DNA of 37,598 bases. It comes from Acidimicrobiia bacterium. GTDB taxonomy: Bacteria; Actinomycetota; Acidimicrobiia; IMCC26256; JACDBD01. The stretch covers positions 1-37,598 of the forward strand of contig DATFPZ010000219.1 in assembly GCA_035264545.1 (NCBI GenBank). The letters run 5' to 3'. Positions 2,293 through 35,539 of this stretch are shown one piece after another; positions within the stretch are counted from its first letter, which is position 1, and the number at the start of each line of letters is the position of its first letter. Position numbers and translations under genes: made by a program. The notes under the pieces are model-generated. The model did not search any database. It was given only the letters and a program-made list of their open reading frames with translations, and was not told where the DNA came from.

Positions 2293-3828
2293 TCAGCCGA
2301 CCCCGCGGTCCCGGCCCTCCCAGTATGGGCCGCGGAGCTTGAACTTCTGCAGCTTGCCGGTAGCGGTGCGTGCGAGCTCGGAGCGGAACTCGACCGACGT
2401 CGGACATTTGTAGTGGGCGAGGCGGTCACGTGAGTGCGCGATGAGCTCCGCTTCGCTCGCCTCGGCGCCGGGCGCGAGCACGACGAGCGCCTTGACGGTC
2501 TCGCCCCACTTCTCGTCGGGCACGCCGATCGCGGCGACTTCGGCGACAGCCGGGTGCGAGAACAGGCAGTCCTCGACCTCGATCGACGACACATTCTCGC
2601 CGCCCGAGATGATGACGTCCTTCTTCCGGTCCGAGATCGACAGGTACTCGTCCTCGTCGATCGCACCGCCGTCGCCGGTGTGGAACCAACCCGCCGGGAT
2701 CGCCTTCGCCGTCTCCTCCGGCTGCTCCCAGTACCCGTCCATGATGACGTTGCCGCGCGCGAGCACCTCGCCCTCGTCGTCGACGCGTAGCTGCACCCCG
2801 AGTGTGGGCGCACCAGCGCGTCCCAGCCGCTGTGCGCGTTCACCGGGGGCGAGGTCGTCGTACTCGGCGCGGCTGCGGTTCATCGTGAGCAGGGGGGCGG
2901 TCTCGGTGAGTCCATAGATCTGGATGAACTCCCAGCCGAGCTCGGTCTCGACCCGCTCGATCGTCCGGGTGGGCGGCGGGGCGCCCGCCACCACCATCCG
3001 GGTGCGGCCACGGCCCGGAATCGCGCCCTGCCATTGCGTGGCGGCGTCGAGCACGGCGTTGACCACCGCAGGCGCGCCGTTGAGCAGTGTGACGGCGTGC
3101 TCCTCGACGCGGCGGAGGATCTCGGCGCCGTCCACCTTGCGGATCACGACGTGGCGGCCGCCCATGCCGGTCATCGCGTACGGCATCCCCCACCCGTTGC
3201 AGTGGAACATCGGCAATGTGTGGAGGTAGACGTCGCGGTCGTTCACGCCGGTCTGCCATCCGAAGACGGTGGCGTTGATCCAGCAGTTGCGGTGCGTCAG
3301 CTGCACGCCTTTGGGCCGGGCGGTCGTTCCGCTCGTGTAGTTGATCGTCGCGGTGGCGTCCTCGTCGGGCTCCCAGGGCTCGGGCTCGACGCCCTCACGA
3401 AACAGCTCCTGATCCGCTTCGGCGCCCATCACGAACCGGTGCTTGGCGCCGACGCTCGAGAGCGCCTCGTCGAGCTCGGGGTCGACGAGCAACATTGCGG
3501 CGCCGGAGTGCTCGACGATGTACCCGACTTCGTCGGCGTTGAGCCGGAAGTTGATGGGCACGAGGATCCGACCTGAGCCGCTCACCCCGAAGAATGACAC
3601 GAACAGGCGCGCCGCGTTCGGCGAGACGATCGCGACGCGCTCTCCCACGCCGATCCCGAAGTGGTCCAACGCGGCCGCTTGCGCCCGGGCGAGCGCGCGC
3701 ACGCGCCCGTAGGTCAGCCCGTCGAGGGGCGGGGCAGGCTGGTCGGGCTCGTCGAGAATGCCGATCCGGTCGCCGTACACGAGCGCGGCGCGCTCCAGGA
3801 AGTCGTTGACCGTCAGCGGCACCTTCAT
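2293..3828 (-). CDS. AMP-forming acyl-CoA synthetase (FadD-like, ANL superfamily)
   Basis: ORF 2293..3897. I chose the ATG at 3828 (MKVPLTVNDFLERAALVYGDR...), which is preceded by a GAGGGGGG RBS. AMP-binding motifs are present: YTSGTTARPKGV, YGLTE, TGD..., SGGENVSS. Confidence 0.9.
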   Translation of the reverse strand: MKVPLTVNDFLERAALVYGDRIGILDEPDQPAPPLDGLTYGRVRALARAQAAALDHFGIGVGERVAIVSPNAARLFVSFFGVSGSGRILVPINFRLNADEVGYIVEHSGAAMLLVDPELDEALSSVGAKHRFVMGAEADQELFREGVEPEPWEPDEDATATINYTSGTTARPKGVQLTHRNCWINATVFGWQTGVNDRDVYLHTLPMFHCNGWGMPYAMTGMGGRHVVIRKVDGAEILRRVEEHAVTLLNGAPAVVNAVLDAATQWQGAIPGRGRTRMVVAGAPPPTRTIERVETELGWEFIQIYGLTETAPLLTMNRSRAEYDDLAPGERAQRLGRAGAPTLGVQLRVDDEGEVLARGNVIMDGYWEQPEETAKAIPAGWFHTGDGGAIDEDEYLSISDRKKDVIISGGENVSSIEVEDCLFSHPAVAEVAAIGVPDEKWGETVKALVVLAPGAEASEAELIAHSRDRLAHYKCPTSVEFRSELARTATGKLQKFKLRGPYWEGRDRGVG

Positions 3829-3855
3829 GCTGGCCCCCCTCGGATCGGCATGCGC

Positions 3856-3898
3856 GATGGTGCGTTCAGCTTCGCATAGCGAAGCCGAGGAACGCATC
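3856..3898. repeat. nested-palindrome intergenic repeat, diverged copy D
   Basis: GATGGTGCGTTCAGCTTCGCATAGCGAAGCCGAGGAACGCATC. The outer stem is GGTGCGTT/AACGCATC and the inner hairpin is GCTTCGC-ATA-GCGAAGC. The architecture and termini match the copies at 6344, 11533 and 33850. It lies between the dehydrogenase stop and the synthetase start. Confidence 0.6.
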
Positions 3899-3903
3899 GT
3901 GGG

Positions 3904-5034
3904 TCAGGCCGGGCGCAGGCTCCGCAAGGGGGCGCCGTGGGTCCACGCCGCGGGGTCGCCGGGGCGGAAGCGGCGCCCGGCGCCGGCCTCGGCGATGCGC
4001 CGCCGCGCCAGCTGCTCGGCGGCACGGCCCGGCGGCACGTGCTCCGTGCGGGCGAGGTCGAACACGCGGCGGACCGTGTCGGCGATCCGAGCGGTGCGCT
4101 TCCGGGCGTTGTCGCGGTCGTAGCCGACGAACTCTTCGGCGAGGTTGATGATCCCGCCCGCGTTCACCACGAAGTCGGGAGCGTAGAGGATGCCTCGCTC
4201 GGCGAGGGTGTCGTCATCGGACGCTTCGGCGAGCTGGTTGTTGGCCGCGCCGCACACCGCCCGGCACTGCAGCCGCGGGATCGTCTTCTCGTCGAGCACG
4301 CCACCCAGCGCGCACGGCGCGAGGATGTCGCACGCCTCCTCCAGCGCCCCTTCGACCGGCAGCGGCTCGGCACCGATCTCCTGCACCAACACGTCGACGC
4401 GTTCACGGTTCACATCCGCTACTGCGACGCGGGCGTCCGCCTCCGCGAGGAGGCGTGCCAGGTGCGTGCCGACGTGGCCGACGCCGTCCACGACGACGCG
4501 CTTGCCGGCGAACGCGGCGTCCCCGTCGAGCTCCTCGAGCACCGCGCCCATCGCCCGCACCACGCCGTAGGCGGTCATCGGTGAGGGGTCGCCCGAGCCG
4601 CCGGGACCCTCGAGCCCGGTGACCCACGGCGTCTCCGACGCGATCACCTGCATGTCGTGCGGCGTCGCGCCGACGTCCTCGGCGGCGATGTAGCGGCCAC
4701 CCAGGTCGTCGATCGCCCGTCCCATGGCGCGCAACAACGCGTCGGTGCGCGGCGCGTCGGGATCGTCGACGAGCACGACCGCCTTTCCTCCGCCCTGATG
4801 CAGCCCGGCGGCGGCGGCCTTGAGGCTCATCGCCTCGGAGAGGCGCAGCGCGTCGACGACGGCGTCGTGCTCGGACGGGTAGCGCCAGAACCGTATGCCG
4901 CCGAGCGACGGCCCCAGCGCGGTCGAGTGCACGGCGATGACTGCCCGCAGCCCCGAGCGCGCGTCGGCGACGAAGACGACTTGCTCGTGGCCCTTCGCGG
5001 TCATCAGCTCGGTGACCGCGGCGTCGGTGCCCAT
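3904..5034 (-). CDS. Leu/Val/Phe dehydrogenase (Glu/Leu/Phe/Val dehydrogenase family)
   Basis: 376-aa ORF with HEQVVFVADARSGLRAVIAVHSTALGPSLGGIRFWRY..., the catalytic-Lys region LKAAAAGLHQGGGKAV and a Rossmann motif VDGVGHVG. Alternative ATG at 5004. Confidence 0.9.
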   Translation of the reverse strand: MGTDAAVTELMTAKGHEQVVFVADARSGLRAVIAVHSTALGPSLGGIRFWRYPSEHDAVVDALRLSEAMSLKAAAAGLHQGGGKAVVLVDDPDAPRTDALLRAMGRAIDDLGGRYIAAEDVGATPHDMQVIASETPWVTGLEGPGGSGDPSPMTAYGVVRAMGAVLEELDGDAAFAGKRVVVDGVGHVGTHLARLLAEADARVAVADVNRERVDVLVQEIGAEPLPVEGALEEACDILAPCALGGVLDEKTIPRLQCRAVCGAANNQLAEASDDDTLAERGILYAPDFVVNAGGIINLAEEFVGYDRDNARKRTARIADTVRRVFDLARTEHVPPGRAAEQLARRRIAEAGAGRRFRPGDPAAWTHGAPLRSLRPA

Positions 5035-5148
5035 CAGGGTCGACGGTACTGTGCCGCGCGCCGCTCGCGCGACGCGCGTGGTCAGGGGAATAGCGTCCGA
5101 TACGTCGGGTTTTCGAAGAGCGGTCCGTCGTTGCCCGCGCTGCGGCTG

Positions 5149-6345
5149 ATGTGTTTCGGGTCCGGGGCTGTGCGAAGCTCACCCTTCGTGCGCGGCAAGT
5201 CGATCGGTCTCCTTCTCTTTGCGCTCGTGGGCGTCCTCGGCCTGGTCGCGTCCGCTTGCTCGAGCAGCGACAACAGCAGAGCCCGGGGGGCACAGCCGTC
5301 TTCGACTGCGGCCACGACCACGGCCGCGCCCACGACCGCGCCACCGACGACCGCTGCGAAGCCTGACAACGTCTACGAGTTCACGCAGGCGAACCAGCTC
5401 GCGCCCTCGGTGCGCGACATTCCCACTCGCGTCTACGTGCCGAACGGGATGTCGAACACGGTCGACGTGATCGATCCGAACACGATGGCGGTCATCGACC
5501 AGTACCCGGTCGGGCGGCTGCCGCAGCACGTCGTGCCGTCGTGGGACATGCAGACGCTCTACGTGAACAACAACCAGGGCAACACGCTGACTCCGATCGA
5601 CCCCCGCACCGGGAAGCCGGGCGCACCGATCCCGATCGCCGACCCGTACAACCTGTACTTCTCACCCGACGGGACCAAGGCCATCGTCATGGCCGAGCGT
5701 GACAACTCCGTCGACTTCTACGACCCGAAGACCTGGGCGCTCATCAAGAAGCTGCACATCCCGCATACCGGTGTGAACCATGCCGAGTTCACTCCCGACG
5801 GGCAGACCATGGTTGCGAGCACGGAGTTCTCGGGGTTCCTCGTGAGGATCGACCTCGCCAGCATGGAGATCACCGGGGAGCTCGACGTGGGAGGAAAGCC
5901 CGTCGACGTGAAGCTCTCGCCCGATGGCACCGTCATGTTCAACGCCAACGAGACGAAGGACGGCGTCACGGTCGTGGACTGGGCGAACATGAGTGAGCTG
6001 CAGTTCATCCCGACCGGGAAGGGCGCGCACGGCCTGTACCCCAGCCGCGACGGCAAGCAGCTGTACGTGACGAACCGCGGCGCCGGCTCGGTGAGCGTGA
6101 TCGACTTCGCCTCACGGAGCATCGTCGGCAACTGGCACTTCGGCGGCAGCCCCGACATGGGCGGTGTCAGCAGCGACGGCAGGCAGCTCTGGCTCAGCGG
6201 CCGCTACAACTCCGAGGTCTACGTGATCGACACGACGACCGGGCAGCTGATCAAGAAGATCCCGGTCGGCAACGGTCCGCACGGCCTGGCGCTCTTCCCC
6301 CAACCCGGCCGGTACAGCATGGGCCACACCGGCAACTACCGCTGA
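5149..6345 (+). CDS. secreted/lipoprotein YVTN-repeat beta-propeller protein (YncE-like)
   Basis: C-terminal ~400 aa of ORF 4657..6345; the N-terminal 160 aa of that ORF are antisense to the dehydrogenase. It has a signal peptide with the lipobox-like LVASAC, a Thr/Ala/Pro linker and repeated YVxN/SPDG/LYVTNRGAGSVSVID propeller motifs. The start is ATG 5149 or GTG 5188. Confidence 0.8.
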   Translation: MCFGSGAVRSSPFVRGKSIGLLLFALVGVLGLVASACSSSDNSRARGAQPSSTAATTTAAPTTAPPTTAAKPDNVYEFTQANQLAPSVRDIPTRVYVPNGMSNTVDVIDPNTMAVIDQYPVGRLPQHVVPSWDMQTLYVNNNQGNTLTPIDPRTGKPGAPIPIADPYNLYFSPDGTKAIVMAERDNSVDFYDPKTWALIKKLHIPHTGVNHAEFTPDGQTMVASTEFSGFLVRIDLASMEITGELDVGGKPVDVKLSPDGTVMFNANETKDGVTVVDWANMSELQFIPTGKGAHGLYPSRDGKQLYVTNRGAGSVSVIDFASRSIVGNWHFGGSPDMGGVSSDGRQLWLSGRYNSEVYVIDTTTGQLIKKIPVGNGPHGLALFPQPGRYSMGHTGNYR

Positions 6346-6386
6346 TGCGTATCCGAGTGACGCTCAGCGTCCTCGAAATACGCATC
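6344..6386. repeat. 43-nt nested-palindrome intergenic repeat, copy A
   Basis: GATGCGTATCCGAGTGACGCTCAGCGTCCTCGAAATACGCATC. It has a 9-bp outer stem, a CGAG/CTCG middle stem and a GACGC-TCA-GCGTC inner hairpin. It begins inside the TGA of the propeller gene and sits between convergent genes. Confidence 0.75.
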
Positions 6387-6391
6387 GACAG

Positions 6392-8584
6392 CTAGCGAGC
6401 CGCGTCCCGCAGCTGCTGGTCGCGCAGGAGCGGCGAGCCTTTCTTGACGAAGAGCGGCACGCGGCCGAGGGGGACGTCCTCGGTGAGCTCGACCGGGCCC
6501 TCCACCACTCGCGAGCGGTCCCAGAAGTCCACCCACTTGCCCTTCGGGAGGTACACGGCGCGGCTGCGCGCGCCCGACTGCCACACGGGCGCCACGAGGA
6601 GGTCGTCCCCGAGCAGCCACTGGTCCCACCGGTCGGCGACGTTCGGGTCCTTCGGGTAGTTGAAGACCAGCGGCCGGACGAGCGGCGCGCCCGTGCGGTG
6701 CGCGTCGCGGGCGAGACGCTGCTGGTAGTCGGCGAGCGCGTGGTGGAGCACGACGTAGCGCCGGTAGATGTCGATCATCTCCTCGTCGACCTTCGGCTCC
6801 GTCGGCATGTCCCAGGGAGCGTCGGTGCCCTTGCCATGGAACCGCATGAGCGGTGAGAGGGCACCAACCTCGATCCAACGGGCGAATACCTCGCGGTCGC
6901 CGAAGTCGCTGTACCCGCCGATGTCGGAGCCCCAGTACGGCAAGCCCATGAACGCGCAACGCTGCAGGCTGACGAGCACGCTGCGCAGGCCGAGGTCGGT
7001 CGATGGGCCGGTGTCGGGCCGCTCGGGAATGAGAACTCCTTCGCGGCTGTGCGTGTCGCCGCCCCACGTCATCGCGTACCGGGCCGTCCCCGTGTATGCG
7101 GCGCGCGCGATCGCCCACCCGTCACCGCCGCGGGCTTCGTCCAGGGCGCGTTGCACGGCGTGCTGGAGCATCACCGGATAGGCGTTGTGAATCTGCCGGC
7201 CGTTGCGGCCGTCGTGATACACGTCGTCGGGGTCACTCGGCACGATCTCCTCGCTCCGGTCGACGAAGAACCCGTCGACGAGCCGTCCGGAGCCTTTGAG
7301 GAAACCGCGCAGCTCGCGCTCGAGCCCGCGCACGGCGGCCGGGTTCGTCAGGTCGAGCTCGCGCTCGCTGCCGGGCGCGAGCCAGCCCTGCTCGCGCGCC
7401 CGAGCCGCGCGCTCGTCGAGCGCCCACTCCGATACCCACACCTGACTCGACCAGCCGCGCCGCTTCATGACCTCGAGCATCCCGTCGGCGTCCGGGAAGC
7501 GGGCCGGGTCGAAGCGGAGCGTCCCGTAGCCCTCGGTGCCCTCCGCCCACGGCCGGTCGAAGTGGTAGATGCCGACGGGAATGTCGTAGCGCTCGTAGTT
7601 CAGGAGGTCGTCGGCCACGGTCGGGTTCACGGGCACGCCGTCGACGTCGACCGGCTCACCGATCACGGCCTGGTCGCGACCGCGCCAGTGCAGGAACACC
7701 TGCTTGGGCGGCACGATCGGCCTGCCGGTGAGGCGCGAGTACGCCTCGTTCTGCTGGTAGTGGCCGCCGGTGAACACGAAGTAGCGGCCCGTGTGCGCCT
7801 GCGGGTCGATCTCGTACTCGAAGGAGAGGACGGCCGGATCGGTCGCGCCGAGGTCGTAGATGCCGGGCATCGAGCCGTCGACGAACAGCCCGTACCCGTT
7901 CGAGGACTGGTAGAAGGGCGCGTAGGCGGAGATCGTCGGGCGCACGTACATGGTGACGCGCTCGCCCTTGCGGTTCAGCGTGCCGACCGGTTGCGGCGTC
8001 AGCTCGGACGCGCCGATGTCGTCGACGATGCGCTCGGTGAGGCCGTAGACGCGCTCGTCGGGCGTCGTGCGCAGCTGCTCGCCCCAATGCGTGATCGTGG
8101 CATCCTCGAAGGCCAATGCCACCGACACCGTGTCGTCGGCGTGGGCCTGGAGCGTGACCGTGCCGGTGGTGCCGTCGCCGAAGGTTGCACGCAGACGGAG
8201 CGCGCAGCGCTGGAGGCTCGTGGGCTGGGCGGCGCTCACGGTTACGGGCGCGCTCGCGTCACCGCGCCGGAAATAGAGCCCACCGGCCGGGACTTCCCGC
8301 ACGATCGCGCCCTTCCGCGTGGACACCGTGATCGCGAGTGGCGCGAGCGTGACCTCCAGGCGCATCCGCCCGGAACGGGTGGTGAGGCGATCGCCGTCGC
8401 GGTTGACGTCGGAGAAATCACGTACGGGCGCCCGCACGGCCCCCGAGGCCTTCCCGACCGCCGGGTCGGCGCAGCGCGAGCCCGCCGACAGCGCCCGATC
8501 CGCCGCCGCCGGCGCCGCCAGCCCGCCGCACGCCACCCCGAGCGCGACTGCGACCGCAACCGACCGGGGCCTCGGGCGACGCAC
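6392..8584 (-). CDS. glycoside hydrolase family 31 (alpha-glucosidase/xylosidase-like), secreted
   Basis: 730-aa ORF with an N-terminal signal peptide (MRRPRPRSVAVAVALGVACGGLAAPAAA). GH31-like blocks are present: YGLFVDG, IPVGIYHFDRPWA, GFFVDRSEE (nucleophile region) and WGGDTHS. Confidence 0.85.
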   Translation of the reverse strand: MRRPRPRSVAVAVALGVACGGLAAPAAADRALSAGSRCADPAVGKASGAVRAPVRDFSDVNRDGDRLTTRSGRMRLEVTLAPLAITVSTRKGAIVREVPAGGLYFRRGDASAPVTVSAAQPTSLQRCALRLRATFGDGTTGTVTLQAHADDTVSVALAFEDATITHWGEQLRTTPDERVYGLTERIVDDIGASELTPQPVGTLNRKGERVTMYVRPTISAYAPFYQSSNGYGLFVDGSMPGIYDLGATDPAVLSFEYEIDPQAHTGRYFVFTGGHYQQNEAYSRLTGRPIVPPKQVFLHWRGRDQAVIGEPVDVDGVPVNPTVADDLLNYERYDIPVGIYHFDRPWAEGTEGYGTLRFDPARFPDADGMLEVMKRRGWSSQVWVSEWALDERAARAREQGWLAPGSERELDLTNPAAVRGLERELRGFLKGSGRLVDGFFVDRSEEIVPSDPDDVYHDGRNGRQIHNAYPVMLQHAVQRALDEARGGDGWAIARAAYTGTARYAMTWGGDTHSREGVLIPERPDTGPSTDLGLRSVLVSLQRCAFMGLPYWGSDIGGYSDFGDREVFARWIEVGALSPLMRFHGKGTDAPWDMPTEPKVDEEMIDIYRRYVVLHHALADYQQRLARDAHRTGAPLVRPLVFNYPKDPNVADRWDQWLLGDDLLVAPVWQSGARSRAVYLPKGKWVDFWDRSRVVEGPVELTEDVPLGRVPLFVKKGSPLLRDQQLRDAAR

Positions 8585-10449: not shown

Positions 10450-11520
10450 ATGCGCCGACTGCCCCTGTTCACGCTCGCCGTCTCGCTCCTCGCGGCGGCG
10501 TTGGCCACCGGTGGTCCGGTAGCGGCGACGGCATCGGCGCCGGCCGGCTCCGACGGCACGACGATCACGCTCATGACCCACGACTCGTTCAACGCGTCGA
10601 AGCGAGTCATTCGCCAGTTCACGAAGCGGACCGGCGTGAGCGTGGACGTGCTGCCGTCGGGCGACGCGGGAGCAGCCGTCAATCAGGCGATCCTCACCAA
10701 GAACAATCCGCTCGGCGACGTGTTCTTCGGCGTCGACAACACGCTGCTCAGCCGGGCACTCGACGAGGGCATCTTCGTCCCGTACAAGTCACCCGAGCTC
10801 GCGCACGTCCCGGAGTCGCTCCAGCTCGATCCGCGGAACCGCGTCAGCCCGGTCGACACCGGGGACGTGTGCCTCAACTTCGACCGGAAGTATTTCACCG
10901 ACAAGAAGCTCACCGTCCCGAAGACGCTCGACGACCTGACGAAGCCGGAGTACAAGGGCTTGCTCGTCGTCGAGAACCCGGCGACGTCGTCGCCCGGATT
11001 GGCGTTCCTGCTCGCCACGGTGGCCAAGTTCGGACCGGACGGCTGGCGCGCCTACTGGGACAAGCTGCAGGCCAACGACGTCAAGGTCGTCGACGGCTGG
11101 GAGCAGGCGTACAACACCGAGTTCTCGGGGAGCGCCGGCAAAGGGGACTACCCGCTGGTGGTGTCATACGCGACCAGCCCTCCGGCGGAGGTGGTGAACG
11201 CCGACTCCCGGCCGGAGGAGCCGCCGACCGGCGCGTTGCTCGACACGTGCTTCCGGCAGATCGAGTTCGTCGGCATCCTCAAGGGCACCACGCACGAGAA
11301 GGCCGCAAAGCAGTTCGTCGACTTCATGCTGTCGGACCGATTCCAGCGCGACATGCCTCTCCAGATGTACGTGTTCCCCGCCCGCGACGGCACGAAGCTC
11401 CCGCCGGCGTTCGTGAAATACGCCAAGGTCGCCCCGAGGCCGCTGTCGCTCCCGCCCGAGGACATCGCCCGAAACCGAGACCAATGGATCGACGAGTGGA
11501 CCAACACCGTCCTCCGGTGA
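10450..11520 (+). CDS. thiB: thiamine ABC transporter substrate-binding protein
   Basis: 356-aa ORF with a signal peptide and the TbpA/ThiB-like periplasmic-binding fold (LMTHDSFN..., GDVFFGVDN, SSPGLAFL). It starts 1 nt after the TPK stop. Confidence 0.85.
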   Translation: MRRLPLFTLAVSLLAAALATGGPVAATASAPAGSDGTTITLMTHDSFNASKRVIRQFTKRTGVSVDVLPSGDAGAAVNQAILTKNNPLGDVFFGVDNTLLSRALDEGIFVPYKSPELAHVPESLQLDPRNRVSPVDTGDVCLNFDRKYFTDKKLTVPKTLDDLTKPEYKGLLVVENPATSSPGLAFLLATVAKFGPDGWRAYWDKLQANDVKVVDGWEQAYNTEFSGSAGKGDYPLVVSYATSPPAEVVNADSRPEEPPTGALLDTCFRQIEFVGILKGTTHEKAAKQFVDFMLSDRFQRDMPLQMYVFPARDGTKLPPAFVKYAKVAPRPLSLPPEDIARNRDQWIDEWTNTVLR

Positions 11521-11530
11521 GCGTCGCGCC

Positions 11531-13198
11531 ATGATGCGTACCTCAACTGCGCAGAGCGCACCTCGGATACGCATCGGGCACGTGCTCCTGCTTTCGGTGC
11601 CGCTGGCGTTCCTGGGCGTGTTCTTCGTGTATCCGGTGGCGTCGATCATCGGTCGCGGGCTCACGCCGGGCGGGACGCTGGACCTCAGCCCGATCGGTGC
11701 AGTCGTGACCGACTCGCAGCTGCGGGACGTGGCGTGGTTCACGATCTGGCAGGCGACGGTATCGACCGCGCTCACGGTGCTCGTCGCGATCCCGGGCGCA
11801 TACGTGTTCGCGCGGTACGAGTTCCGTGGAAAGCGACTCGTGCGGGCGGCGGTGCTCGTCCCGTTCGTGCTGCCGACGGTCGTGGTCGGCTCCGCGTTCC
11901 TCGCCCTGCTCGGCGAAGGCGGCCCTCTCGGGTTCCTCGGTCTCGACCAGTCGCTCGCCGCCATCCTCGTCGCCCACGTGTTCTTCAACTACGCGGTCGT
12001 GGTGCTGATCGTCGGTGGTCTGTGGGCGCACCTCGATCCGCGCCAGGAGGACGCGGCCCGCGTCCTCGGCGCCGGTCGGTGGCAGACGTTTCGCGCGGTC
12101 ACACTGCCGGCACTCCGGCCCGCGATCGCGGCCGCAGCGGCGATCGTGTTCCTGTTCACATTCACGTCCTTCGGGGTGATCTTGATCCTCGGCGGGCCGG
12201 GCTACTCGACCCTCGAGACAGAGATCTACCGGCAGACCGTGCAGTTCCTCGACCTACCGCAGGCAGCTGCGCTGTCGATCGTGCAGCTGGCGGCGGTCGT
12301 CGCCGTGCTGCTGGTCGCGGGCCGCGCGCAAGGCCGGCGGGCGCTGGCGCTGCGGTTGCGCGCCAGCGCCGAGACGTCCCGCCTGGCTCGCACTCCCGGC
12401 GAGCGCGCCGTCGTGAGCTTCAACCTGGTGGTGATGGCCCTCCTGCTCGGCGGGCCGATCCTCGTGCTCGTCGAGCGGTCGTTCGACACGGCCGGCGGGT
12501 ACAGCTTGGGCTTCTACCGCGCGTTGTCGGAGCTGCGCCGCACGAGCACCGTCTTCGTGCCTCCGATCGAAGCTGTGCGCAACTCGGTCGTGTTCGCGTC
12601 GATCGCGACCGTCATCGCCCTCGTGATCGGTGGATTGGCGGCGTTCGCGGTCGCCGGCCCCCGCCGCGGCGCGCAGCCGGCACGCGGACTCGACACCCTG
12701 CTGCTCCTGCCGCTCGGGGTTTCGGCGGTGACGATCGGTTTCGGCTTTCTGATCGCGCTCGACCGGCCGCCGTTCGACCTGCGCGCGTCCCCCGCGCTGA
12801 TCCCGATCGCGCACGCCCTCGTGGCGGCGCCGTTCGTCGCCCGAGTCATGATCCCGGTGCTGCGGTCCATCGACCAGCGCCTGCGCGAGACCGCCGCGGT
12901 CCTCGGCGCCTCGCCGGGACGCGTCTGGCGGGAGATCGACCTGCCGATCGTCACTCGGGCCGTGCTCGTGGCGGCCGGGTTCGCGTTCGCCATCTCGCTC
13001 GGCGAGTTCGGGGCGACGATCTTCATCGCCCGTCCCGACTACCCCACCCTGCCCGTTGTCATCTTCCGCCTCCTCGGTCAGCCCGGCGCGTTGAACTTCG
13101 GCGCCGCGATGGCGGCGAGCGTCATCCTGATGGCCGTGACCGCACTGGCGATCTTCGCCATCGAGCGCTTCCGCTTCGCCAACATCGGGGAGTTCTGA
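11531..13198 (+). CDS. thiP: thiamine ABC transporter permease (two fused permease domains)
   Basis: 555-aa ORF with about 12 TM segments and two EAA-type loops (EDAARVLGAGRWQTFRAVTLP and ETAAVLGASPGRVWREIDLP). The ATG at 11531 gives a basic N-tail, but those codons are the repeat and have low GC3. Alternative start GTG 11582. Confidence 0.85.
   Translation: MMRTSTAQSAPRIRIGHVLLLSVPLAFLGVFFVYPVASIIGRGLTPGGTLDLSPIGAVVTDSQLRDVAWFTIWQATVSTALTVLVAIPGAYVFARYEFRGKRLVRAAVLVPFVLPTVVVGSAFLALLGEGGPLGFLGLDQSLAAILVAHVFFNYAVVVLIVGGLWAHLDPRQEDAARVLGAGRWQTFRAVTLPALRPAIAAAAAIVFLFTFTSFGVILILGGPGYSTLETEIYRQTVQFLDLPQAAALSIVQLAAVVAVLLVAGRAQGRRALALRLRASAETSRLARTPGERAVVSFNLVVMALLLGGPILVLVERSFDTAGGYSLGFYRALSELRRTSTVFVPPIEAVRNSVVFASIATVIALVIGGLAAFAVAGPRRGAQPARGLDTLLLLPLGVSAVTIGFGFLIALDRPPFDLRASPALIPIAHALVAAPFVARVMIPVLRSIDQRLRETAAVLGASPGRVWREIDLPIVTRAVLVAAGFAFAISLGEFGATIFIARPDYPTLPVVIFRLLGQPGALNFGAAMAASVILMAVTALAIFAIERFRFANIGEF
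11533..11575. repeat. 43-nt nested-palindrome repeat, copy B
   Basis: GATGCGTACCTCAACTGCGCAGAGCGCACCTCGGATACGCATC. It has an 8-bp outer stem and an inner hairpin TGCGC-AGA-GCGCA. It lies 12 nt after the thiB stop and covers codons 1-15 of the longest thiP ORF. Confidence 0.75.
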
Positions 13199-23002: not shown

Positions 23003-24481
23003 ATGGCCACCACCACCCGTACCGGCGCCAGGAACCTGATCCTGGCGCTGACGTGCGCGGCCCAGTTCATGGTGATCCTCGACGTCGCCATCGTGAACGT
23101 GGCGTTGCCGTCGATCCAGCGCGACCTGGGCGTCAGCCAGAGCACGCTGCAGTGGGTCGTCATCGCGTACGGCCTGATGCTCGGAGGATTCCTCTTGTTC
23201 GGCGGGCGCCTAGCCGACCTGCTCGGCAGGCGACGGATCCTCCTCACCGGACTGACCATCTTCACGGGCGCGTCGTTCCTCGCCGGCATCTCCCAGTCGA
23301 TCGGGCTCCTGATCGTCACCCGAGGGCTCCAGGGCTTCGGCGCCGCCCTGGTGGCGCCGGCCGCACTCTCGATCCTCGCCGTCACCTTCTCCGAGGGTCA
23401 GGAGCGCAACCGCGCCCTCGGGATCTTCGGCGCCGTGGGCGGCACCTCGGCGTCGATCGGCGTGATCGCCAGCGGGCTGCTGACCGACGGCCCGGGCTGG
23501 CGGTGGGTGTTCTTCATCAACGTGCCCGTGGGCATCGTGCTCATCGCGCTCGCCACCGTGTTCCTCGTCGCCGACCGCGCGGAACGGGGCGGCAGACAGT
23601 TCGACGTCGCCGGCGCAAGCACCGTGACCGGTGGGCTGCTGCTGCTCGTGTACGCCCTCAACCGGGGCGCCGACTACGGCTGGGCCTCTGCTTCGACGCT
23701 GTTGCTGTTCGGGGCGGCGGCGCTGTTGCTCGCCGCCTTCGTGCGGATCGAGGGGCGGTCCCGCCATCCGCTCGTTCCCGCTACCGCGCTCCGGAATCGC
23801 ACGCTCGTCGCGGCCAACCTCTCGGCGTTCTTCACCTTCAGCGCCTTCTTCTCGTTCATCTTCCTGGGCTCGCTGTTGATGCAGCAGGGACTCGGATACT
23901 CGGCGACGAAGACGGGCGTGTCGTGGCTGGCGACCTCGGTGACCGCCTTCCTTGCGTCCGCCTTCACCGGTGCCCGGCTCGTTGGTCGCTTCGGCGTGCG
24001 CCGTCTCCTCGTCACCGGGCTCTCCCTGCTCGCGATCGGAGTCCTCTGGTTGACGCGGGTACCGGCGGACGCCAACTACGTCACGGATCTGCTGCCGGCG
24101 CTGCTGCTCGCCGGGGTGGCAATCGGGCTCTGCGCTCCCTCCGTGCAGATCGGAGCGCTGTCAGGCGTCTCCGATGCGGCGACGGGATTGGCGGCCGGCC
24201 TGGTCGAGACCATGCGCGAGATCGGAGGTGCCGCCGGTGTCGCGGCGGTGTCGACCGTGCTCGTCTCGCAAGCCGGCTTCGACGGATTCCACGCCGCGTT
24301 CCTCGTCATCTGCATCGCGGCCGCGCTCGGCGCGCTCATCGCAACGGTCGCATTCGAGCGTCGCACTCGGTCGGTGTCGGACGAGTCGCTCGGCGGGACG
24401 GTCGCTCCGGCGGGAGCCCCCGCGCTCGTGCCCGTGCCGGTTCCGGTGGAAGACCGCCCGGACGTGGTCCCGCGCAATTAG
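23003..24481 (+). CDS. MFS transporter, DHA2 (EmrB/QacA, 14-TMS) drug:H+ antiporter type
   Basis: Internal ATG of ORF 22943..24481, preceded by a GGAGTGAGGAG RBS. It has FMVILDVAIVNVALPSIQRDLG, the motif A-like GGRLADLLGRRR and about 14 hydrophobic segments. Confidence 0.9.
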   Translation: MATTTRTGARNLILALTCAAQFMVILDVAIVNVALPSIQRDLGVSQSTLQWVVIAYGLMLGGFLLFGGRLADLLGRRRILLTGLTIFTGASFLAGISQSIGLLIVTRGLQGFGAALVAPAALSILAVTFSEGQERNRALGIFGAVGGTSASIGVIASGLLTDGPGWRWVFFINVPVGIVLIALATVFLVADRAERGGRQFDVAGASTVTGGLLLLVYALNRGADYGWASASTLLLFGAAALLLAAFVRIEGRSRHPLVPATALRNRTLVAANLSAFFTFSAFFSFIFLGSLLMQQGLGYSATKTGVSWLATSVTAFLASAFTGARLVGRFGVRRLLVTGLSLLAIGVLWLTRVPADANYVTDLLPALLLAGVAIGLCAPSVQIGALSGVSDAATGLAAGLVETMREIGGAAGVAAVSTVLVSQAGFDGFHAAFLVICIAAALGALIATVAFERRTRSVSDESLGGTVAPAGAPALVPVPVPVEDRPDVVPRN

Positions 24482-24496
24482 GCGCGGGACCACGTC
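24461..24496. terminator. perfect 15-bp stem / 6-nt loop hairpin spanning the overlapping stop codons of convergent genes (candidate bidirectional terminator)
   Basis: GACGTGGTCCCGCGC-AATTAG-GCGCGGGACCACGTC. The loop holds the MFS TAG (24479-81) and the SRPBCC TAA (24480-78 on the minus strand). No U-tract is present. Confidence 0.5.
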
Positions 24497-24894
24497 GGGG
24501 CCTCCAGCGTCTGCTTGACGACGCCGATGCCGTGCGCCATGAGCTCGTCGATCCGAGGAGCGAGCTCGTCCGGGAGGACGTCCTTGATCCAGACGAACCG
24601 GCTGCGACCGTCCGCGTCCGGGAGGACCTGGGCGGACGAGTTGTCGTGGGTACTTCCCAAGGGACTCTCGACGATGGAGTAGACGAGGCGACGGGCGTCG
24701 TCGTCGATGTCGACCAGCAGCTCGCGTGCCACCGCGCCGTTGAAGAAGGTGACGACCCTCGCGTTGCCCTCGAGCCGGCAGTCGACGACGAACCCGGGTG
24801 CGAGCCGTTGGTGGACGGCACCGAAGTCGCGCAGCGCGTCCCAGACGTCGCCGGGCGATGCGTCGATGACAACCTGCTTGGTGATCGAAGCCAC
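24478..24894 (-). CDS. SRPBCC (polyketide cyclase/dehydrase-like) ligand-binding protein
   Basis: 138-aa ORF. MASITKQVVIDASPGDVWDALRDFG... is the typical SRPBCC N-terminus, and the size is typical of the family. Confidence 0.8.
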   Translation of the reverse strand: MASITKQVVIDASPGDVWDALRDFGAVHQRLAPGFVVDCRLEGNARVVTFFNGAVARELLVDIDDDARRLVYSIVESPLGSTHDNSSAQVLPDADGRSRFVWIKDVLPDELAPRIDELMAHGIGVVKQTLEAPTWSRA

Positions 24895-25830: not shown

Positions 25831-26619
25831 TCAGAGCTTCGAGCCGCTGGTGATGAAGAAGGTGACGGCGTACATGAACTCCCCGCCGGCGACGGAGGCG
25901 TCGATGTCGGCGTCCCATTGGGCGACCTCGTCGTCGGTGAGCAGCCCTTCGGCGTGCATCAGCCGTGGCCACGTCATGAAACCGAACGCATCACGCGGAT
26001 CCGTGAGGACGAGCGTCGCCGCCTCGCATTCCACATCGGCGAGTCCCGCCCGCCGGAACAGGCGCGGGAGCTGCCGCCCGATGGTGCCGTTGCACAGGTT
26101 GCGGTCCCGCCGGAAGTCCTTCACTTTGCGGAGCAGCGCGGGATCGGAGACGTCGGCGATGAGCGTCTCCTGATCGGGATCGATGGCGACGACGCGTCCG
26201 CCCGCGCGTGTGACGCGGGTGATCTCGTCGACAGCGTCCTCGGGCCCGGGGACGTGCTGGAGCACACGGTCGATGCGGGTGCCCTCGAACGCACCGTCGT
26301 CGTAGGGCAGCGCCCGCGCGTCGGCTTGCAGGTAGGAGCCGCCGCGAGTGTGGGCCGTCTTGAGCATGACCGCCGACGCGTCGACGCCGATCGCGATGCC
26401 GTCGGGACCCGCCGTCACCGCCAGGGCGCGGGTGTCATGGCCGGTTCCGCAGCCGACGTCGAGGAGGCGCGCGCCGGGCTTGACGTGCAGCAGGTCGACG
26501 GTCCGCTCCTTGTAGGCGCGAATGAACGGCCAGTCGCACATCGTGTCCATCCATTCGGCCGCCCCCACGGGGTCGGCCGAATGGTCGACATCGGAGTAAG
26601 TACCGGTCAGGTGAACCAT
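25831..26619 (-). CDS. class I SAM-dependent methyltransferase
   Basis: Internal ATG 26619 of ORF 25831..27105 ([10 protein letters not shown]...). Motif I is [11 protein letters not shown]; post-I and motif II are also present. Confidence 0.85.
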
Positions 26620-26660
26620 TTGCGGAAAACGTAATCGAGGAACAAACGGGCAGACGACGA

Positions 26661-27161
26661 TCAAGCCGACCGTGCTGCGAAGGGCCGGCGGATCATACGC
26701 AACAGACGAGCCCGGTTGTAGCGCTGGATGGCCAGGCACGGGACGTTGGCGATGACCCCGTATCCAGCCATTGCCAGCCCCAGCCACCACGGGCTCCACA
26801 GGAAGAACAAGGGGCTGGCGGCCAGGATCGACCAGTGCGTGAGCTCGGCCCGCCGGGTCTCGACGGCGAAGCGCTCGAGATAGACCGGATTGGTGGACCT
26901 CACGCGTCGCTTCGAGAATCCGCCGCGGAAGAGCGCGCCTGCTTCTGGGAGAAGGTCCTTCCACCGCTTGATCCGGAGCCATCGCTCGTAGAACCGGCCG
27001 CCGGCCTCGAACCCTCGGATGCGCAGCAACCCGCGGTCGAGCGCCAGGCGAGACGACGGGATGCGATGCGCGACGTAGCCGCAGAGCAAGCTCCAGGACG
27101 CCCACACGCCGGCGTCGAGCAACACGATGACGAGATTCCGCCGCGTCGCCAGGGTGCTCAC
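26661..27161 (-). CDS. CrtO-like acyltransferase (glycosyl-4,4'-diaponeurosporenoate acyltransferase family)
   Basis: GTG 27161 within ORF 26661..27518, overlapping the upstream stop as GTGA; 166 aa. It aligns by eye to S. aureus CrtO blocks: WLRIKRWKDLLPE, ETRRAELTHW (ETKRAELIHW), ANVPCLAIQRYNRARL (ANVPIIIVQRYNRPRL). Confidence 0.75.
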   Translation of the reverse strand: MSTLATRRNLVIVLLDAGVWASWSLLCGYVAHRIPSSRLALDRGLLRIRGFEAGGRFYERWLRIKRWKDLLPEAGALFRGGFSKRRVRSTNPVYLERFAVETRRAELTHWSILAASPLFFLWSPWWLGLAMAGYGVIANVPCLAIQRYNRARLLRMIRRPFAARSA

Positions 27162-28335: not shown

Positions 28336-29541
28336 ATGGACTTCGAGTTCAGCGCCCGTTCGCTCGAGCTCCAGAAGCAGCTGCGCGACTTCATCGAGAC
28401 GCACGTCGTCCCGGCCGAGCCCGTGTACCGGCAGCAGGTGGAGGAATCAGGCGACCCCCACTTCCACCCGCCCGTCATGGAGGACCTGAAGGCCGAGGCG
28501 CGCCAGCGCGGCCTGTGGAACCTGTTCCTCCCCAATCCGAACTGGGGCGCGGGCCTCTCGAACCTCGACTACGCGCCGCTCTGCGAGCTGATGGGACGCA
28601 ACCTGCTCGCGGCGGAGGCGACGAACTGTGCCGCGCCCGATACCGGCAACATGGAGATCCTCGCCGAGTTCGGCACCGCGGAGCAGCAAGAGGAGTGGCT
28701 GCTGCCGCTGCTGCACGGCGAGATCCGGTCCTGTTTCGCGATGACCGAGCCCTGGGTGGCGAGCTCCGACGCCACCAACCTCCAGAGCCGTATCGAACGC
28801 GATGGTGACGACTACGTGGTCAACGCGCACAAGTGGTGGACGAGCGGCGCAGCGTCGGCACGTTGCAAGGTCGCCGTCCTCTTGGGCGTCTCGAACCCCG
28901 ATGCGGACCCGTACCACCGTCAGTCGATGATCCTGGTGCCGATGGACGCGCCCGGTGTGCGGGTCGTGCGCACGCTCCCCGTCTTCGGGCATGACGCCGG
29001 CGGCGGCCATTGCGAGACGCTGTACGAGAACGTGCGGCTCCCGGCGTCGAACCTGTTGGGGGAGGAAGGCGGCGGGTTCGCCATCGCGCAGGCGCGGCTG
29101 GGCCCGGGCCGCATACATCACTGCATGCGGGCGATCGGCCTCGCCGAGAAGGCGCTCGAGCTGATGTGCGAGCGGGCATGGTTGCGCAGGCCGTTCGGGA
29201 AATCCCTCGCGGAGCAAGGGGTCGTGCAGGACCGCATCGCCGAATCCCGCATTGAGATCGAGCAGGCCCGCCTCCTCGTGCTCAAAGCCGCCTGGCTGAT
29301 GGACACGGCCGGGAACAAGGGTGCCCGGTTCGAGATCGCCGCGATCAAGGTGGTGGCGGCACGCCTCGCGACGACGGTGATCGACCGGGCGATTCAACTC
29401 TTCGGTGGCGCAGGCGTGTCGGACGACTGGCCGCTGGCGTCGATGTACACGCACGCGCGGACGCTGCACCTGGTCGACGGGCCCGACGAGGTGCACAAGC
29501 AGCAGATCGCCCGCCGCGAGCTCCGGCCGTACCAGCCGTGA
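28336..29541 (+). CDS. acyl-CoA dehydrogenase
   Basis: 401-aa ORF with the ACAD N, middle and C domains (CFAMTEP, WWTSGA, ...IHHCMRAIGLAE..., QLFGGAGVS). Confidence 0.9.
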   Translation: MDFEFSARSLELQKQLRDFIETHVVPAEPVYRQQVEESGDPHFHPPVMEDLKAEARQRGLWNLFLPNPNWGAGLSNLDYAPLCELMGRNLLAAEATNCAAPDTGNMEILAEFGTAEQQEEWLLPLLHGEIRSCFAMTEPWVASSDATNLQSRIERDGDDYVVNAHKWWTSGAASARCKVAVLLGVSNPDADPYHRQSMILVPMDAPGVRVVRTLPVFGHDAGGGHCETLYENVRLPASNLLGEEGGGFAIAQARLGPGRIHHCMRAIGLAEKALELMCERAWLRRPFGKSLAEQGVVQDRIAESRIEIEQARLLVLKAAWLMDTAGNKGARFEIAAIKVVAARLATTVIDRAIQLFGGAGVSDDWPLASMYTHARTLHLVDGPDEVHKQQIARRELRPYQP

Positions 29542-33849: not shown

Positions 33850-33892
33850 GATGCGTATCTGAACTGCGCAGAGCGCAGCTGAGATACGCATC
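33850..33892. repeat. 43-nt nested-palindrome repeat, copy C
   Basis: GATGCGTATCTGAACTGCGCAGAGCGCAGCTGAGATACGCATC. It has an 11-bp outer stem and a CTGCGC-AGA-GCGCAG inner hairpin. It lies between the acyl-CoA ligase stop (33899) and the UbiB-like start (33838). Confidence 0.8.
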
Positions 33893-33898
33893 GTCGGT

Positions 33899-35539
<1,641 letters not shown>

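What the first reader, a model, noticed from the sequence alone, without database searches (positions are those of the whole stretch)
6344..6386. Family of ~43-nt nested-palindrome repeats, four copies in 37.6 kb, all at gene junctions (copy A, between convergent genes)
Three copies are exactly 43 nt and share their termini:
- A (6344): GATGCGTATCCGAGTGACGCTCAGCGTCCTCGAAATACGCATC
- B (11533): GATGCGTACCTCAACTGCGCAGAGCGCACCTCGGATACGCATC
- C (33850): GATGCGTATCTGAACTGCGCAGAGCGCAGCTGAGATACGCATC
- D (3856): a diverged fourth copy with the same layout

Each copy folds as an outer 8-11 bp stem (GATGCGTA/TACGCATC), an internal bulge, an inner 5-7 bp hairpin and a 3-nt loop. The inner stems differ in sequence: GACGC/GCGTC in A, CTGCGC/GCGCAG in B and C, GCTTCGC/GCGAAGC in D. 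All remain self-complementary, which is the signature of selection on structure rather than sequence.

This is REP/BIME-like behaviour. I cannot assign it to any named actinobacterial repeat family from memory. Copy A starts inside the stop codon of the propeller gene and fills the 46-nt gap to the convergent GH31 gene, so it is positioned as a bidirectional terminator or RNA-end stabiliser.
Basis: seen in the sequence. Interest (0 to 1): 0.72.

Follow-up and report, generated by a model that had tools for sequence, protein, structure and literature searches.

The report
Stop-codon-hugging palindromic repeat family, Acidimicrobiia
The four repeats are real copies of a previously undescribed family of 43-base DNA palindromes that has spread through the very short gaps at gene ends of uncultured high-GC Acidimicrobiia, usually touching the stop codon; it resembles the REP and TRIT repeats of other bacteria, but how it moves and what it does are not yet known.

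Summary
Three exact GATGCGTA-N27-TACGCATC copies and a diverged fourth (3859-3898) lie at gene junctions, where shuffles give none.

A metagenome scan returned more than 100 further copies, all from contigs of about 70% G+C. The core is fixed at 43 nt, flanked by a pyrimidine and a purine. The outer arms (GATGCGTATC) and the apex (CGC-NNN-GCG) are conserved. The middle is variable but self-complementary.

- **Position:** of 111 gene 3' ends facing a copy, 53 use a TGA built from the flanking T plus the element's GA, and 49 more stop within 15 nt. Copies are about four-fold enriched between convergent genes.
- **Turnover:** one junction is empty in four relatives and filled in three, by different subfamilies at different offsets. 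Middles at orthologous sites are unrelated and tend to resemble other copies in the same genome.
- **Negatives:** no target duplication, U-tract, strand bias, RAYT or Rfam match.

Best reading: a REP/TRIT-like dispersed palindrome that spreads or is homogenised at the DNA level and is tolerated at gene ends. Its transcript would form a 20-bp hairpin at the stop codon, acting as a bidirectional 3'-end barrier. That function is inferred. I class it as a new variant of a known kind, of moderate interest.

The parts
6344..6386 (.). Copy A, 43-nt core. The 45-nt unit is 6343-6387 (T...G). It lies between the convergent YNCE-propeller (+) and GH31 (-) genes. The propeller stop TGA (6343-6345) is made of the flanking T plus the element's GA. 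The GH31 stop (6392-6394) lies 5 nt beyond the other end.
   Evidence: Empty and filled orthologous sites.
11533..11575 (.). Copy B, 43-nt core, between the solute-binding protein gene (stop 11518-11520) and the permease gene of a thiamine-type ABC operon. An in-frame ATG at 11531 overlaps the element. An alternative GTG start lies at 11582.
   Evidence: The junction is also occupied in L118, L120, L146, L153 and L113, with unrelated middles.
33850..33892 (.). Copy C, 43-nt core, between the stop of the acyl-CoA ligase gene (33899-33901, - strand) and the start of the ABC1-kinase gene (33838, - strand).
   Evidence: Identical copy in L238, and a copy of another subfamily at the same junction in L129.
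3859..3898 (.). Copy D, a diverged 40-nt copy (GGTGCGTT...AACGCATC) between the stop of the Glu/Leu dehydrogenase gene (3904, - strand) and the start of the AMP-ligase gene (3828, - strand).
   Evidence: E=1.7e-5; not in the training set. Only degenerate remnants at the same junction in L118 and L119.

Best explanation
The four copies belong to a family of DNA palindromes with a fixed length. The core is 43 nt: GATGCGTATC, then 7 variable nt, then CGC-NNN-GCG, then 7 complementary nt, then GATACGCATC. A pyrimidine precedes it and a purine follows it. The family lives in chromosomes of a clade of roughly 70% G+C Acidimicrobiia, and a 44-45-nt cousin occurs in an Actinoplanes strain.

It behaves as a non-autonomous repeat. 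Copies are gained and lost at gene junctions. Within a genome they are replaced or homogenised by other copies, probably through a single-stranded hairpin intermediate or by gene conversion, and they leave no target-site duplication. The enzyme responsible is unknown.

Copies persist almost only in the roughly 10-nt gaps at gene 3' ends, above all between convergent genes, and they abut or supply the TGA stop codon.

Shown here: the existence of the family, its anatomy, its position relative to genes and stop codons, gain and loss, and turnover of the middle.

Inferred, not shown: when transcribed from either strand the element forms a hairpin of about 20 bp (mean -30 kcal/mol) that starts at the stop codon. 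It most likely acts as an orientation-independent 3'-end structure, meaning an exonuclease barrier, a processing site or an insulator between convergent or differentially expressed neighbours, as REP does in malE-malF. It is unlikely to be a canonical intrinsic terminator.
For: **Family and anatomy**
- 3 exact matches against 0 in shuffles; D found by the model.
- A pattern allowing 39-47 nt matched 122 sites in the returned metagenome loci, and 107 of them are exactly 43 nt, from loci of about 70% G+C.
- Flanks: -1 is T or C and +1 is A or G at 97% of ends, and the two positions do not covary.
- Covariation on 82 distinct copies.
- Mean MFE -30.0 against -9.6 kcal/mol for shuffles.
- Solo arms are not over-represented.

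**Position**
- 53 of 111 facing 3' ends have the TGA overlapping the element, and 49 more stop within 0-15 nt.
- 57 of 73 flanking T's are the in-frame stop.
- Junction types with an element are 47 convergent, 34 tandem and 8 divergent, against 68, 380 and 95 without one (chi-square 83, p=8e-19). Gaps without an element have medians of 8.5-15 nt.

**Gain and loss**
- Junction A is empty in L241, L118, L242 and L119, and filled in the window, L120 and L243, with different middles and offsets.
- L198, L073 and L125 carry copies where the window has none.

**Turnover**
- At junction B the middles share 4-10 of 23 positions while the flanks are 73-92% identical, and the length stays 43 nt.
- Window copies B and C share 83% of the middle. 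Pairs on the same contig are more alike than pairs on different contigs (p=0.02).
- Identical 43-mers occur at four or more unrelated loci.

**DNA-level symmetry**
- G-U equals A-C, and the loops are orientation-neutral.
- No direct repeat of 2-9 nt at any boundary.
Against: - No mobilising gene was found. There is no transposase or nuclease in the window. There is no RAYT or IS200 match in about 1 Mb of flanks, but the queries were recalled from memory and the power is low.
Beyond the ascertained copy, density in related contigs is only about 1 per 70 kb.
- Junction B is occupied in every relative examined down to 73% identity. That also fits a conserved functional hairpin.
- The 48% overlap with TGA is not explained by random insertion followed by selection, so a targeting step I cannot identify is needed.
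- The RNA function has no direct evidence. There is no U-tract. Mycobacterial RNA polymerase needs one in vitro (title of the paper searched). The analogous TRIT motifs coincide with only 2-4% of mapped 3' ends.
Confidence: 0.6

Rival explanations
1. A vertically inherited cis-acting RNA hairpin (bidirectional terminator or mRNA-end stabiliser). Its complementarity is kept by selection on RNA structure, the copies are ancient and mostly orthologous, and there is no mobility.
For: Strong covariation. Tight placement at 3' ends and enrichment between convergent genes. Junction B is occupied in all six relatives down to 73% identity, and junction C in three. An unrelated 19-bp hairpin sits at another convergent junction in the window, so gene-end hairpins seem to be used generally.
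Against: - Four relatives have clean empty sites at junction A, and three have it filled by different subfamilies at different offsets.
- Middles at orthologous sites are at random-level identity while the flanks are 91-92% identical.
- Window B and C share 83% of their middles, same-contig copies tend to be more alike (p=0.02), and identical 43-mers occur at unrelated loci.
- There is no excess of G-U over A-C and no orientation bias.
- A purely structural role does not explain the conserved arms and apex or the exact 43-nt length.
- There is no U-tract.
Confidence: 0.2
2. A protein-bound DNA site. Candidates are a structure-specific recombination site (attC- or dif-like) or a binding site for a chromosome-organising protein. 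The conserved arms and apex would be the recognition elements, and the hairpin or cruciform would be the substrate.
For: Sequence-conserved arms and apex around a variable, self-complementary middle, with strict length. Strand symmetry. Conserved Y/R flanks that do not pair. As with attC, it abuts stop codons and is homogeneous within a genome.
Against: No integrase, recombinase or other candidate partner in the window or next to copies. Copies are dispersed singly among syntenic housekeeping genes, not in cassette arrays. The ends do not fit the attC R''/R' consensus (RYYYAAC/GTTRRRY, from my own knowledge). Placement at 3' ends rather than promoters argues against an operator.
Confidence: 0.12
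3. Chance palindromes, or part of coding sequence (for example copy B as the N-terminus of the permease), with no family identity.
For: At junction B an ATG precedes the element and the frame stays open through it in the window, L118, L120, L146 and L153. A few ORFs in other loci run through a copy.
Against: No match in 100 shuffles. More than 100 further copies with the same length and ends. L113 lacks the ATG. An open frame over 14 codons is expected about half the time. Most of the 'inside' calls are artefacts of start or stop choice at gene ends.
Confidence: 0.02

Closest known systems
TRIT (Tuberculosis Rho-independent terminator motif) of Mycobacterium, Gardner et al. 2011, NAR (PMC3152330)
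   Same: An actinobacterial hairpin conserved in both sequence and structure. It is palindromic and therefore bidirectional, present in about 147 copies, tied to gene termini, and has a very narrow position that overlaps the end of the coding sequence. Like the present family it lacks demonstrated terminator activity: it overlaps only 2-4% of Term-seq 3' ends.
   Different: TRIT is reported as restricted to Mycobacterium and centred at about -8 from the stop. Here the host is Acidimicrobiia (plus an Actinoplanes cousin) and the modal position is -2, so the stop is built from the element's own end. Sequence homology could not be tested because no TRIT model or sequence was available. The gain and loss and the turnover of the middle shown here were not reported for TRIT.
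REP / REPIN elements with RAYT transposases (GTAG and CGTC superfamilies, Di Nocera et al. 2013, PMC3733652; Bertels & Rainey 2011, PMC3116915)
   Same: Short, dispersed, extragenic palindromes found mostly at 3' ends. They form genome-specific sequence populations, show presence/absence polymorphism and leave no target duplication. A position between a binding-protein gene and a permease gene recalls the malE-malF REP (my own knowledge).
   Different: REP stems are 5-13 bp with an unpaired GTAG or CGTC tag and often a tail, and REPs commonly occur as inverted doublets or clusters. Here there is one 20-bp stem with a 3-nt loop, no tag, singletons only, and no RAYT found. The cited survey found tagged REPs in eight phyla and mentions no Actinobacteria.
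Integron attC sites
   Same: Imperfect palindromes with conserved outer sites and a variable, self-complementary middle. They act as folded single strands, abut or overlap the stop codon of the upstream gene, and are homogeneous within a chromosome (my own knowledge).
   Different: attC sites are 57-141 nt with R''/R' core sites, sit in co-oriented cassette arrays and lie next to intI. None of this is seen here.
Canonical intrinsic terminators
   Same: A stable G+C-containing hairpin just downstream of a stop codon.
   Different: There is no U-tract: T is 2-24% at each of the 12 flanking positions. The shared sequence and the exact length are not properties of terminators.

Membership tests
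REP/REPIN-RAYT | Short imperfect palindrome, dispersed and extragenic | tested here: met
   4 copies in the window, all intergenic. More than 100 further copies, about 90% outside ORFs. The stem is 20 bp, longer than the 5-13 bp of known REPs.
REP/REPIN-RAYT | Unpaired GTAG or CGTC tag at one end | tested here: not met
   The ends are symmetric, Y-GATGCGTATC...GATACGCATC-R. No tag appears in the flank profile.
REP/REPIN-RAYT | Inverted doublets (REPIN/BIME) or clusters | tested here: not met
   Of 114 contigs with a copy, 105 have one, 8 have two and 1 has three; same-contig copies are 1 kb or more apart. No further copy lies near any window copy.
REP/REPIN-RAYT | Cognate RAYT (Y1/HUH transposase) gene flanked by the repeat | tested here: inconclusive
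   No tblastn hit in family loci with recalled RayT and IS200 TnpA queries. No such domain in the window. No whole genome was available.
TRIT (Mycobacterium) | Palindromic hairpin conserved in sequence and structure, at gene termini, bidirectional | tested here: met
   compared with the description.
TRIT (Mycobacterium) | Narrow position overlapping the stop codon | tested here: met
   53 of 111 at -2 and 49 more within 0-15 nt. TRIT is at about -8.
TRIT (Mycobacterium) | Match to the TRIT covariance model or sequence | not testable with these tools
   The model and logos are not held. No Rfam family matched.
TRIT (Mycobacterium) | Restricted to Mycobacterium | tested here: not met
   The host clade is Acidimicrobiia: the best named GH31 homologues are from that class, and there is 73% nucleotide synteny with an Acidimicrobiia MAG.
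Canonical intrinsic terminator | Hairpin followed by a U-tract | tested here: not met
   The hairpin is present. The flanks have no T run.
MITE (DDE-mobilised) | Terminal inverted repeats plus a target-site duplication | tested here: not met
   No direct repeat of 2-9 nt at boundary offsets 0-3 in 97 copies.
DNA uptake sequence pairs | The conserved word is also over-represented as single copies | tested here: not met
   Solo 10-mers: none outside elements. Solo 8-mers: 9 observed against about 11 expected in 739 kb.
Integron attC | R''/R' core sites, cassette array, neighbouring intI | tested here: not met
   The flanking genes are syntenic housekeeping genes and no integrase is present. The core-site consensus comes from my own knowledge.

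The most novel reading that the evidence does not exclude
A new class of mobile hairpin that leaves no target duplication and is anchored on stop codons. It would insert precisely at, or regenerate, the TGA of gene ends and could hit the same 10-nt junction repeatedly. It would be moved by an enzyme that is not a classical RAYT. Its self-complementary core would be hypervariable between genomes and homogenised within each genome, either by templated copying of one arm from the other or by replacement from a master copy.
Probability: 0.25. Interest if true: 0.7.

Novelty: new variant of a known kind. Interest (0 to 1): 0.52.

Why it matters
REP-like and TRIT-like repeats are common, but their origin, their means of spread and their function remain unsettled. 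CGTC-type REPs and TRIT have no known mobilising enzyme.

This family offers an unusually clean case:
- the length is exact;
- the conserved arms and apex are sharply separated from a free but self-complementary core;
- one modal position relative to the stop codon holds about half of all copies;
- near-isogenic empty and filled sites exist;
- the same junction has been filled more than once.

That makes three questions directly testable. How does such a palindrome target gene ends? Is arm complementarity maintained at the DNA level or at the RNA level? Do hairpins without a U-tract mark transcript ends in Actinomycetota?

Practically, the element affects gene calling. It supplies stop codons and sometimes apparent start codons. 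It also marks a clade of uncultured soil and sediment Acidimicrobiia. The cousin in a cultured Actinoplanes strain offers an experimental host.

Tried and rejected
- **First genome scan too loose.** The genome-contig scan with the 8+8 pattern returned mostly chance hits and unrelated families that share the 8-mer (a Pirellula 45-46-nt family, Anaerolineae heptamer arrays, an Acidimicrobiales 60% G+C repeat).
- **Exact-protein look-up.** The look-up of a window protein found nothing.
- **Rfam.** Nothing at gathering thresholds and nothing meaningful at E<=10.
- **Viral contigs and plasmids.** No copies.
- **RAYT/IS200.** No hits, but low power and queries recalled from memory.
- **Target-site duplication.** None. 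The apparent 5-nt ACCGC/ACAGC repeat around copy A is not general.
- **Insertion inside a stop codon (T^RR).** This model predicts AG, AA or GA on the far flank. Observed 49% against 42% in controls, so it is not supported.
- **GATC target.** Insertion into GATC, with GA and TC derived from the target, would explain the enrichment at TGA. The one near-isogenic empty site (L241, CCGC|TAGCG) has no GATC, so this stays speculative.
- **DNA uptake sequence.** Rejected, because solo arms are not enriched.
- **Operator or transcription-factor site.** Rejected on position (3' ends) and on the complementary middle.
- **RNA strand.** A G-U versus A-C asymmetry to identify the functional RNA strand was sought and not found. 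The window-level impression that the minus strand folds better does not generalise.
- **Literature.** Searches for the sequence and for Acidimicrobiia repeats found nothing relevant.

Full report
**1. The observation**

The pattern GATGCGTA-N27-TACGCATC occurs at 6344-6386 (A), 11533-11575 (B) and 33850-33892 (C). None of 100 dinucleotide-preserving shuffles gave a match. The 8-mer alone is not enriched (29 matches at one mismatch or fewer, against 22.5 expected), so the signal is the complete unit.

Copy D is real but begins at 3859. A covariance model built from A, B, C and five copies from other genomes finds D at 3859-3898 with E=1.7e-5. With filters off it finds nothing else in the window. 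All four fold into long hairpins of -18.8 to -29.7 kcal/mol, with z-scores of -4.1 to -7.9.

Gene context:
- A fills the gap between the convergent YNCE-propeller and GH31 genes and shares its GA with the propeller's TGA.
- B lies between the binding-protein and permease genes of a TPK-SBP-permease-ATPase (thiamine-type) operon.
- C and D each lie between two minus-strand genes.

The window is 70% G+C and the elements are 53-60%.

**2. Host and relatives**

The best named homologues of the GH31 protein are from Acidimicrobiia. A MAG labelled Acidimicrobiia (L113) is syntenic with the window at 73% nucleotide identity. A mycothiol-type domain in the window fits Actinomycetota.

The first collection scan, with 8+8 specified bases, was too loose. 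It still showed 43-nt relatives in several MAGs of 70-72% G+C. Three of these are labelled Bifidobacteriaceae, which their G+C content and the 76% identity of L073 to the window make implausible. It also showed a 44-45-nt cousin in Actinoplanes sp. NPDC049265 (three loci).

It returned 120 loci holding 122 matching sites, and 107 of these are exactly 43 nt, from contigs of about 70% G+C. Viral contigs and plasmids hold none. Rfam has no matching family.

**3. Anatomy**

On 82 distinct copies the outer ten positions of each arm are more than 90% conserved, and so largely is the apex CGC-NNN-GCG. Positions 11-17 and their partners vary.

The 20-bp helix is paired in 91.3% of cells. Thirteen pairs change on both sides. 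No shuffle or slid register comes close (the smaller set agrees). Pair 12:32 is an exception: each arm carries G or C independently, giving a mismatch in 43% of copies.

Mean MFE is -30.0 kcal/mol against -9.6 for shuffles.

The base before the core is T or C and the base after it is A or G at 97% of ends. The two do not covary, so this is a sequence preference and not a base pair. No T run follows the hairpin. Arms are not over-represented outside complete elements.

**4. Position relative to genes**

I called genes with a codon-usage model trained on the window.

| Junction type | With a copy | Without a copy |
|---|---|---|
| Convergent | 47 | 68 |
| Tandem | 34 | 380 |
| Divergent | 8 | 95 |

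The difference is highly significant (chi-square 83, p=8e-19).

Junctions without a copy have gaps of only 8.5 nt (convergent) and 12-15 nt (tandem). The element is therefore essentially the whole intergenic region wherever it is present.

Of 111 gene 3' ends facing a copy, 53 end in a TGA made of the flanking T plus the element's GA. A further 49 stop within 0-15 nt. Of 73 such ends with a flanking T, 57 use it as the in-frame stop. Several convergent pairs use both ends of one copy.

Random insertion followed by selection cannot produce this pattern. The alternative frame, which would add only four residues in TCTGA-type copies, is used once.

Start codons lie 6-30 nt beyond the other end in tandem contexts.

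**5. Gain, loss and turnover**

Junction A was recovered from seven relatives.
- It is empty in L241, whose flanks are nearly identical to the window and where the two stops share CTAG.
- It is also empty in L118, L242 and L119.
- It is filled in the window, where a 50-nt block (T + core + GACAGC) is present relative to L241.
- It is filled in L120 and L243 by copies of other subfamilies. These sit at a different offset from the propeller stop, and the GH31 TAG overlaps their last base.
- This indicates at least two independent insertions into a junction of about 10 nt.

Conversely, L198, L073 and L125 carry copies at junctions where the window has none.

Junction B is occupied in all six relatives, down to 73% flank identity. 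Its middles share only 4-10 of 23 positions, even where the flanks are 91-92% identical. The arms, the 43-nt length and the ability to fold are all kept. Junction C shows the same to a lesser degree.

Within the window, B and C share 83% of their middle. Same-contig pairs are more alike than different-contig pairs (6 of 11 at 0.83 or more, against 20% at 0.7 or more; p=0.02). Identical 43-mers occur at four or more unrelated loci. No target-site duplication of 2-9 nt exists at any boundary offset.

**6. RNA or DNA?**

In tandem contexts, read in the sense orientation, G-U pairs (13) are no commoner than A-C mismatches (10). Loop triplets occur equally in both orientations. An RNA structure under long-term selection would be expected to tolerate G-U far more than A-C.

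This symmetry, the wholesale replacement of the middles and the empty sites together suggest that complementarity is kept mainly at the DNA level. Possible routes are copying from palindromic donors, gene conversion between copies, or template-switch correction of quasi-palindromes. That last mechanism is established in E. coli (my own knowledge) and was not tested here.

**7. Function (inferred)**

Any transcript crossing a copy gains a hairpin of about 20 bp that starts at the stop codon, from either strand. The enrichment between convergent genes, and between a binding-protein gene and a permease gene, matches what is known for REP. REP stabilises upstream mRNA in malE-malF, and REPs within 15 nt of a stop reduce upstream expression through ribosome stalling (Newbury 1987; Liang, Rudd & Deutscher 2015; both from my own knowledge, not retrieved here).

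The same enrichment is equally what purifying selection would leave for a selfish insertion, because convergent ends hold no promoter or ribosome-binding site.

A terminator role is doubtful. There is no U-tract. Mycobacterial RNA polymerase requires one. TRITs overlap only 2-4% of mapped 3' ends in M. tuberculosis.

I therefore rate a 3'-end barrier or processing hairpin at about 40%. 'Tolerated passenger with incidental effects' is the main alternative.

**8. Comparison with known elements**

The closest analogue is TRIT of Mycobacterium. It is sequence-conserved, palindromic, bidirectional, present in about 147 copies, and sits at a very narrow position overlapping the end of the coding sequence. 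Homology could not be tested.

The defining features of REP/REPIN are not met. There is no GTAG or CGTC tag, the stem is 20 bp rather than 5-13 bp, there are no doublets, and no RAYT was found.

MITE, DNA uptake sequence, attC and operator readings each fail a tested feature.

**9. Verdict**

The REP-like reading is right in kind, but the family is distinct. It is best described as a new TRIT/REP-like variant with a stop-codon-anchored position and a fast-turning, self-complementary core.

The mobilising mechanism, the copy number per genome and the RNA function remain open.

Noticed in passing
window 24456-24501: An unrelated 19-bp near-perfect hairpin (-45.9 kcal/mol, z -7.9) at the convergent MFS-transporter / polyketide-cyclase junction. 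Both stop codons (TAG 24479-24481 on + and TTA 24478-24480, which reads TAA on -) sit in its 6-nt loop AATTAG. Its two arms therefore encode the C-termini of the two proteins.
   Followed up: partly
window 11531-11584; L118 about 7053; L120 about 72; L146 3109; L153 4544: At junction B an ATG directly precedes the element (cATGATGCGT) and the frame stays open through it into the permease. The gene may therefore start MMR...(I/A)RI, with the element encoding an arginine-rich N-terminal tail. The alternative start is GTG 11582. L113 lacks the ATG.
   Followed up: partly
L221 3705-4764: Two copies 1 kb apart flank a single DUF559 / REase_MTES_1575-like endonuclease-fold gene (3746-4576, - strand) inserted among housekeeping genes (leuA-like, acyl-CoA dehydrogenase, gltX-like). 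This may be coincidence, or a lead to a partner protein.
   Followed up: partly
L024 1224-1267, L054 6975-7018, L105 4542-4586 (Actinoplanes sp. NPDC049265): A 44-45-nt perfect palindrome with the same outer arm (GATGCGTAT...ATACGCATC). The flanks are T or C before and A after. In L024 and L105 both converging ORFs end in an element-overlapping TGA, and in L054 one does. L054 also has a half-copy 11 nt upstream. This is a cousin family in a cultured actinomycete of another class.
   Followed up: partly
L035, L078, L088, L114, L025, L063 (Pirellula MAGs): A separate 45-46-nt palindromic repeat family (GATGCGTAAGCGAGGGA...TCCCTCGCTTACGCATC), usually bracketed by TAACCC...GGGTTA. It shares only the outer 8-mer with the family studied here.
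   Followed up: no
L008 787-901, L031, L034, L065 (Acidimicrobiales MAG CAYUOD01, about 60% G+C): A different 43-nt repeat with the same outer 8-mers but a middle that is not self-complementary (GTAGATGCGTAACTGGATCGGC...CTTACGCATCTAT). It occurs in two copies 72 nt apart in L008 and on at least four contigs.
   Followed up: no
L039, L042, L073 (MAGs labelled 'uncultured Bifidobacteriaceae'): These loci are 70-72% G+C, and L073 is 76% identical to window 28376-30358. The taxonomic label of these MAGs is therefore very probably wrong; they belong with the Acidimicrobiia clade of the window.
   Followed up: partly
window 3904-5034 (-) and 4657-6345 (+): The longest ORF of the propeller gene overlaps the dehydrogenase gene by about 380 nt. 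Orthologues are 378-430 aa (L119, L243), so the true start is probably well downstream of 4657.
   Followed up: no
window 26551-26584: Another strong hairpin outside the family (16-nt arms, 94% complementary, -32.7 kcal/mol), lying at the 5' end of the methyltransferase gene called at 25831-26619 (- strand), next to a stretch of about 540 nt with no called gene (26620-27157).
   Followed up: no
L118 (ENA ERZ25039536 contig_41379): Several genes are split or truncated relative to the window (propeller, AMP-ligase, ABC ATPase, histidine kinase). This suggests frameshift errors typical of long-read assembly, so details of its junction sequences, including the weakly paired copy B, should be treated with caution.
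   Followed up: no
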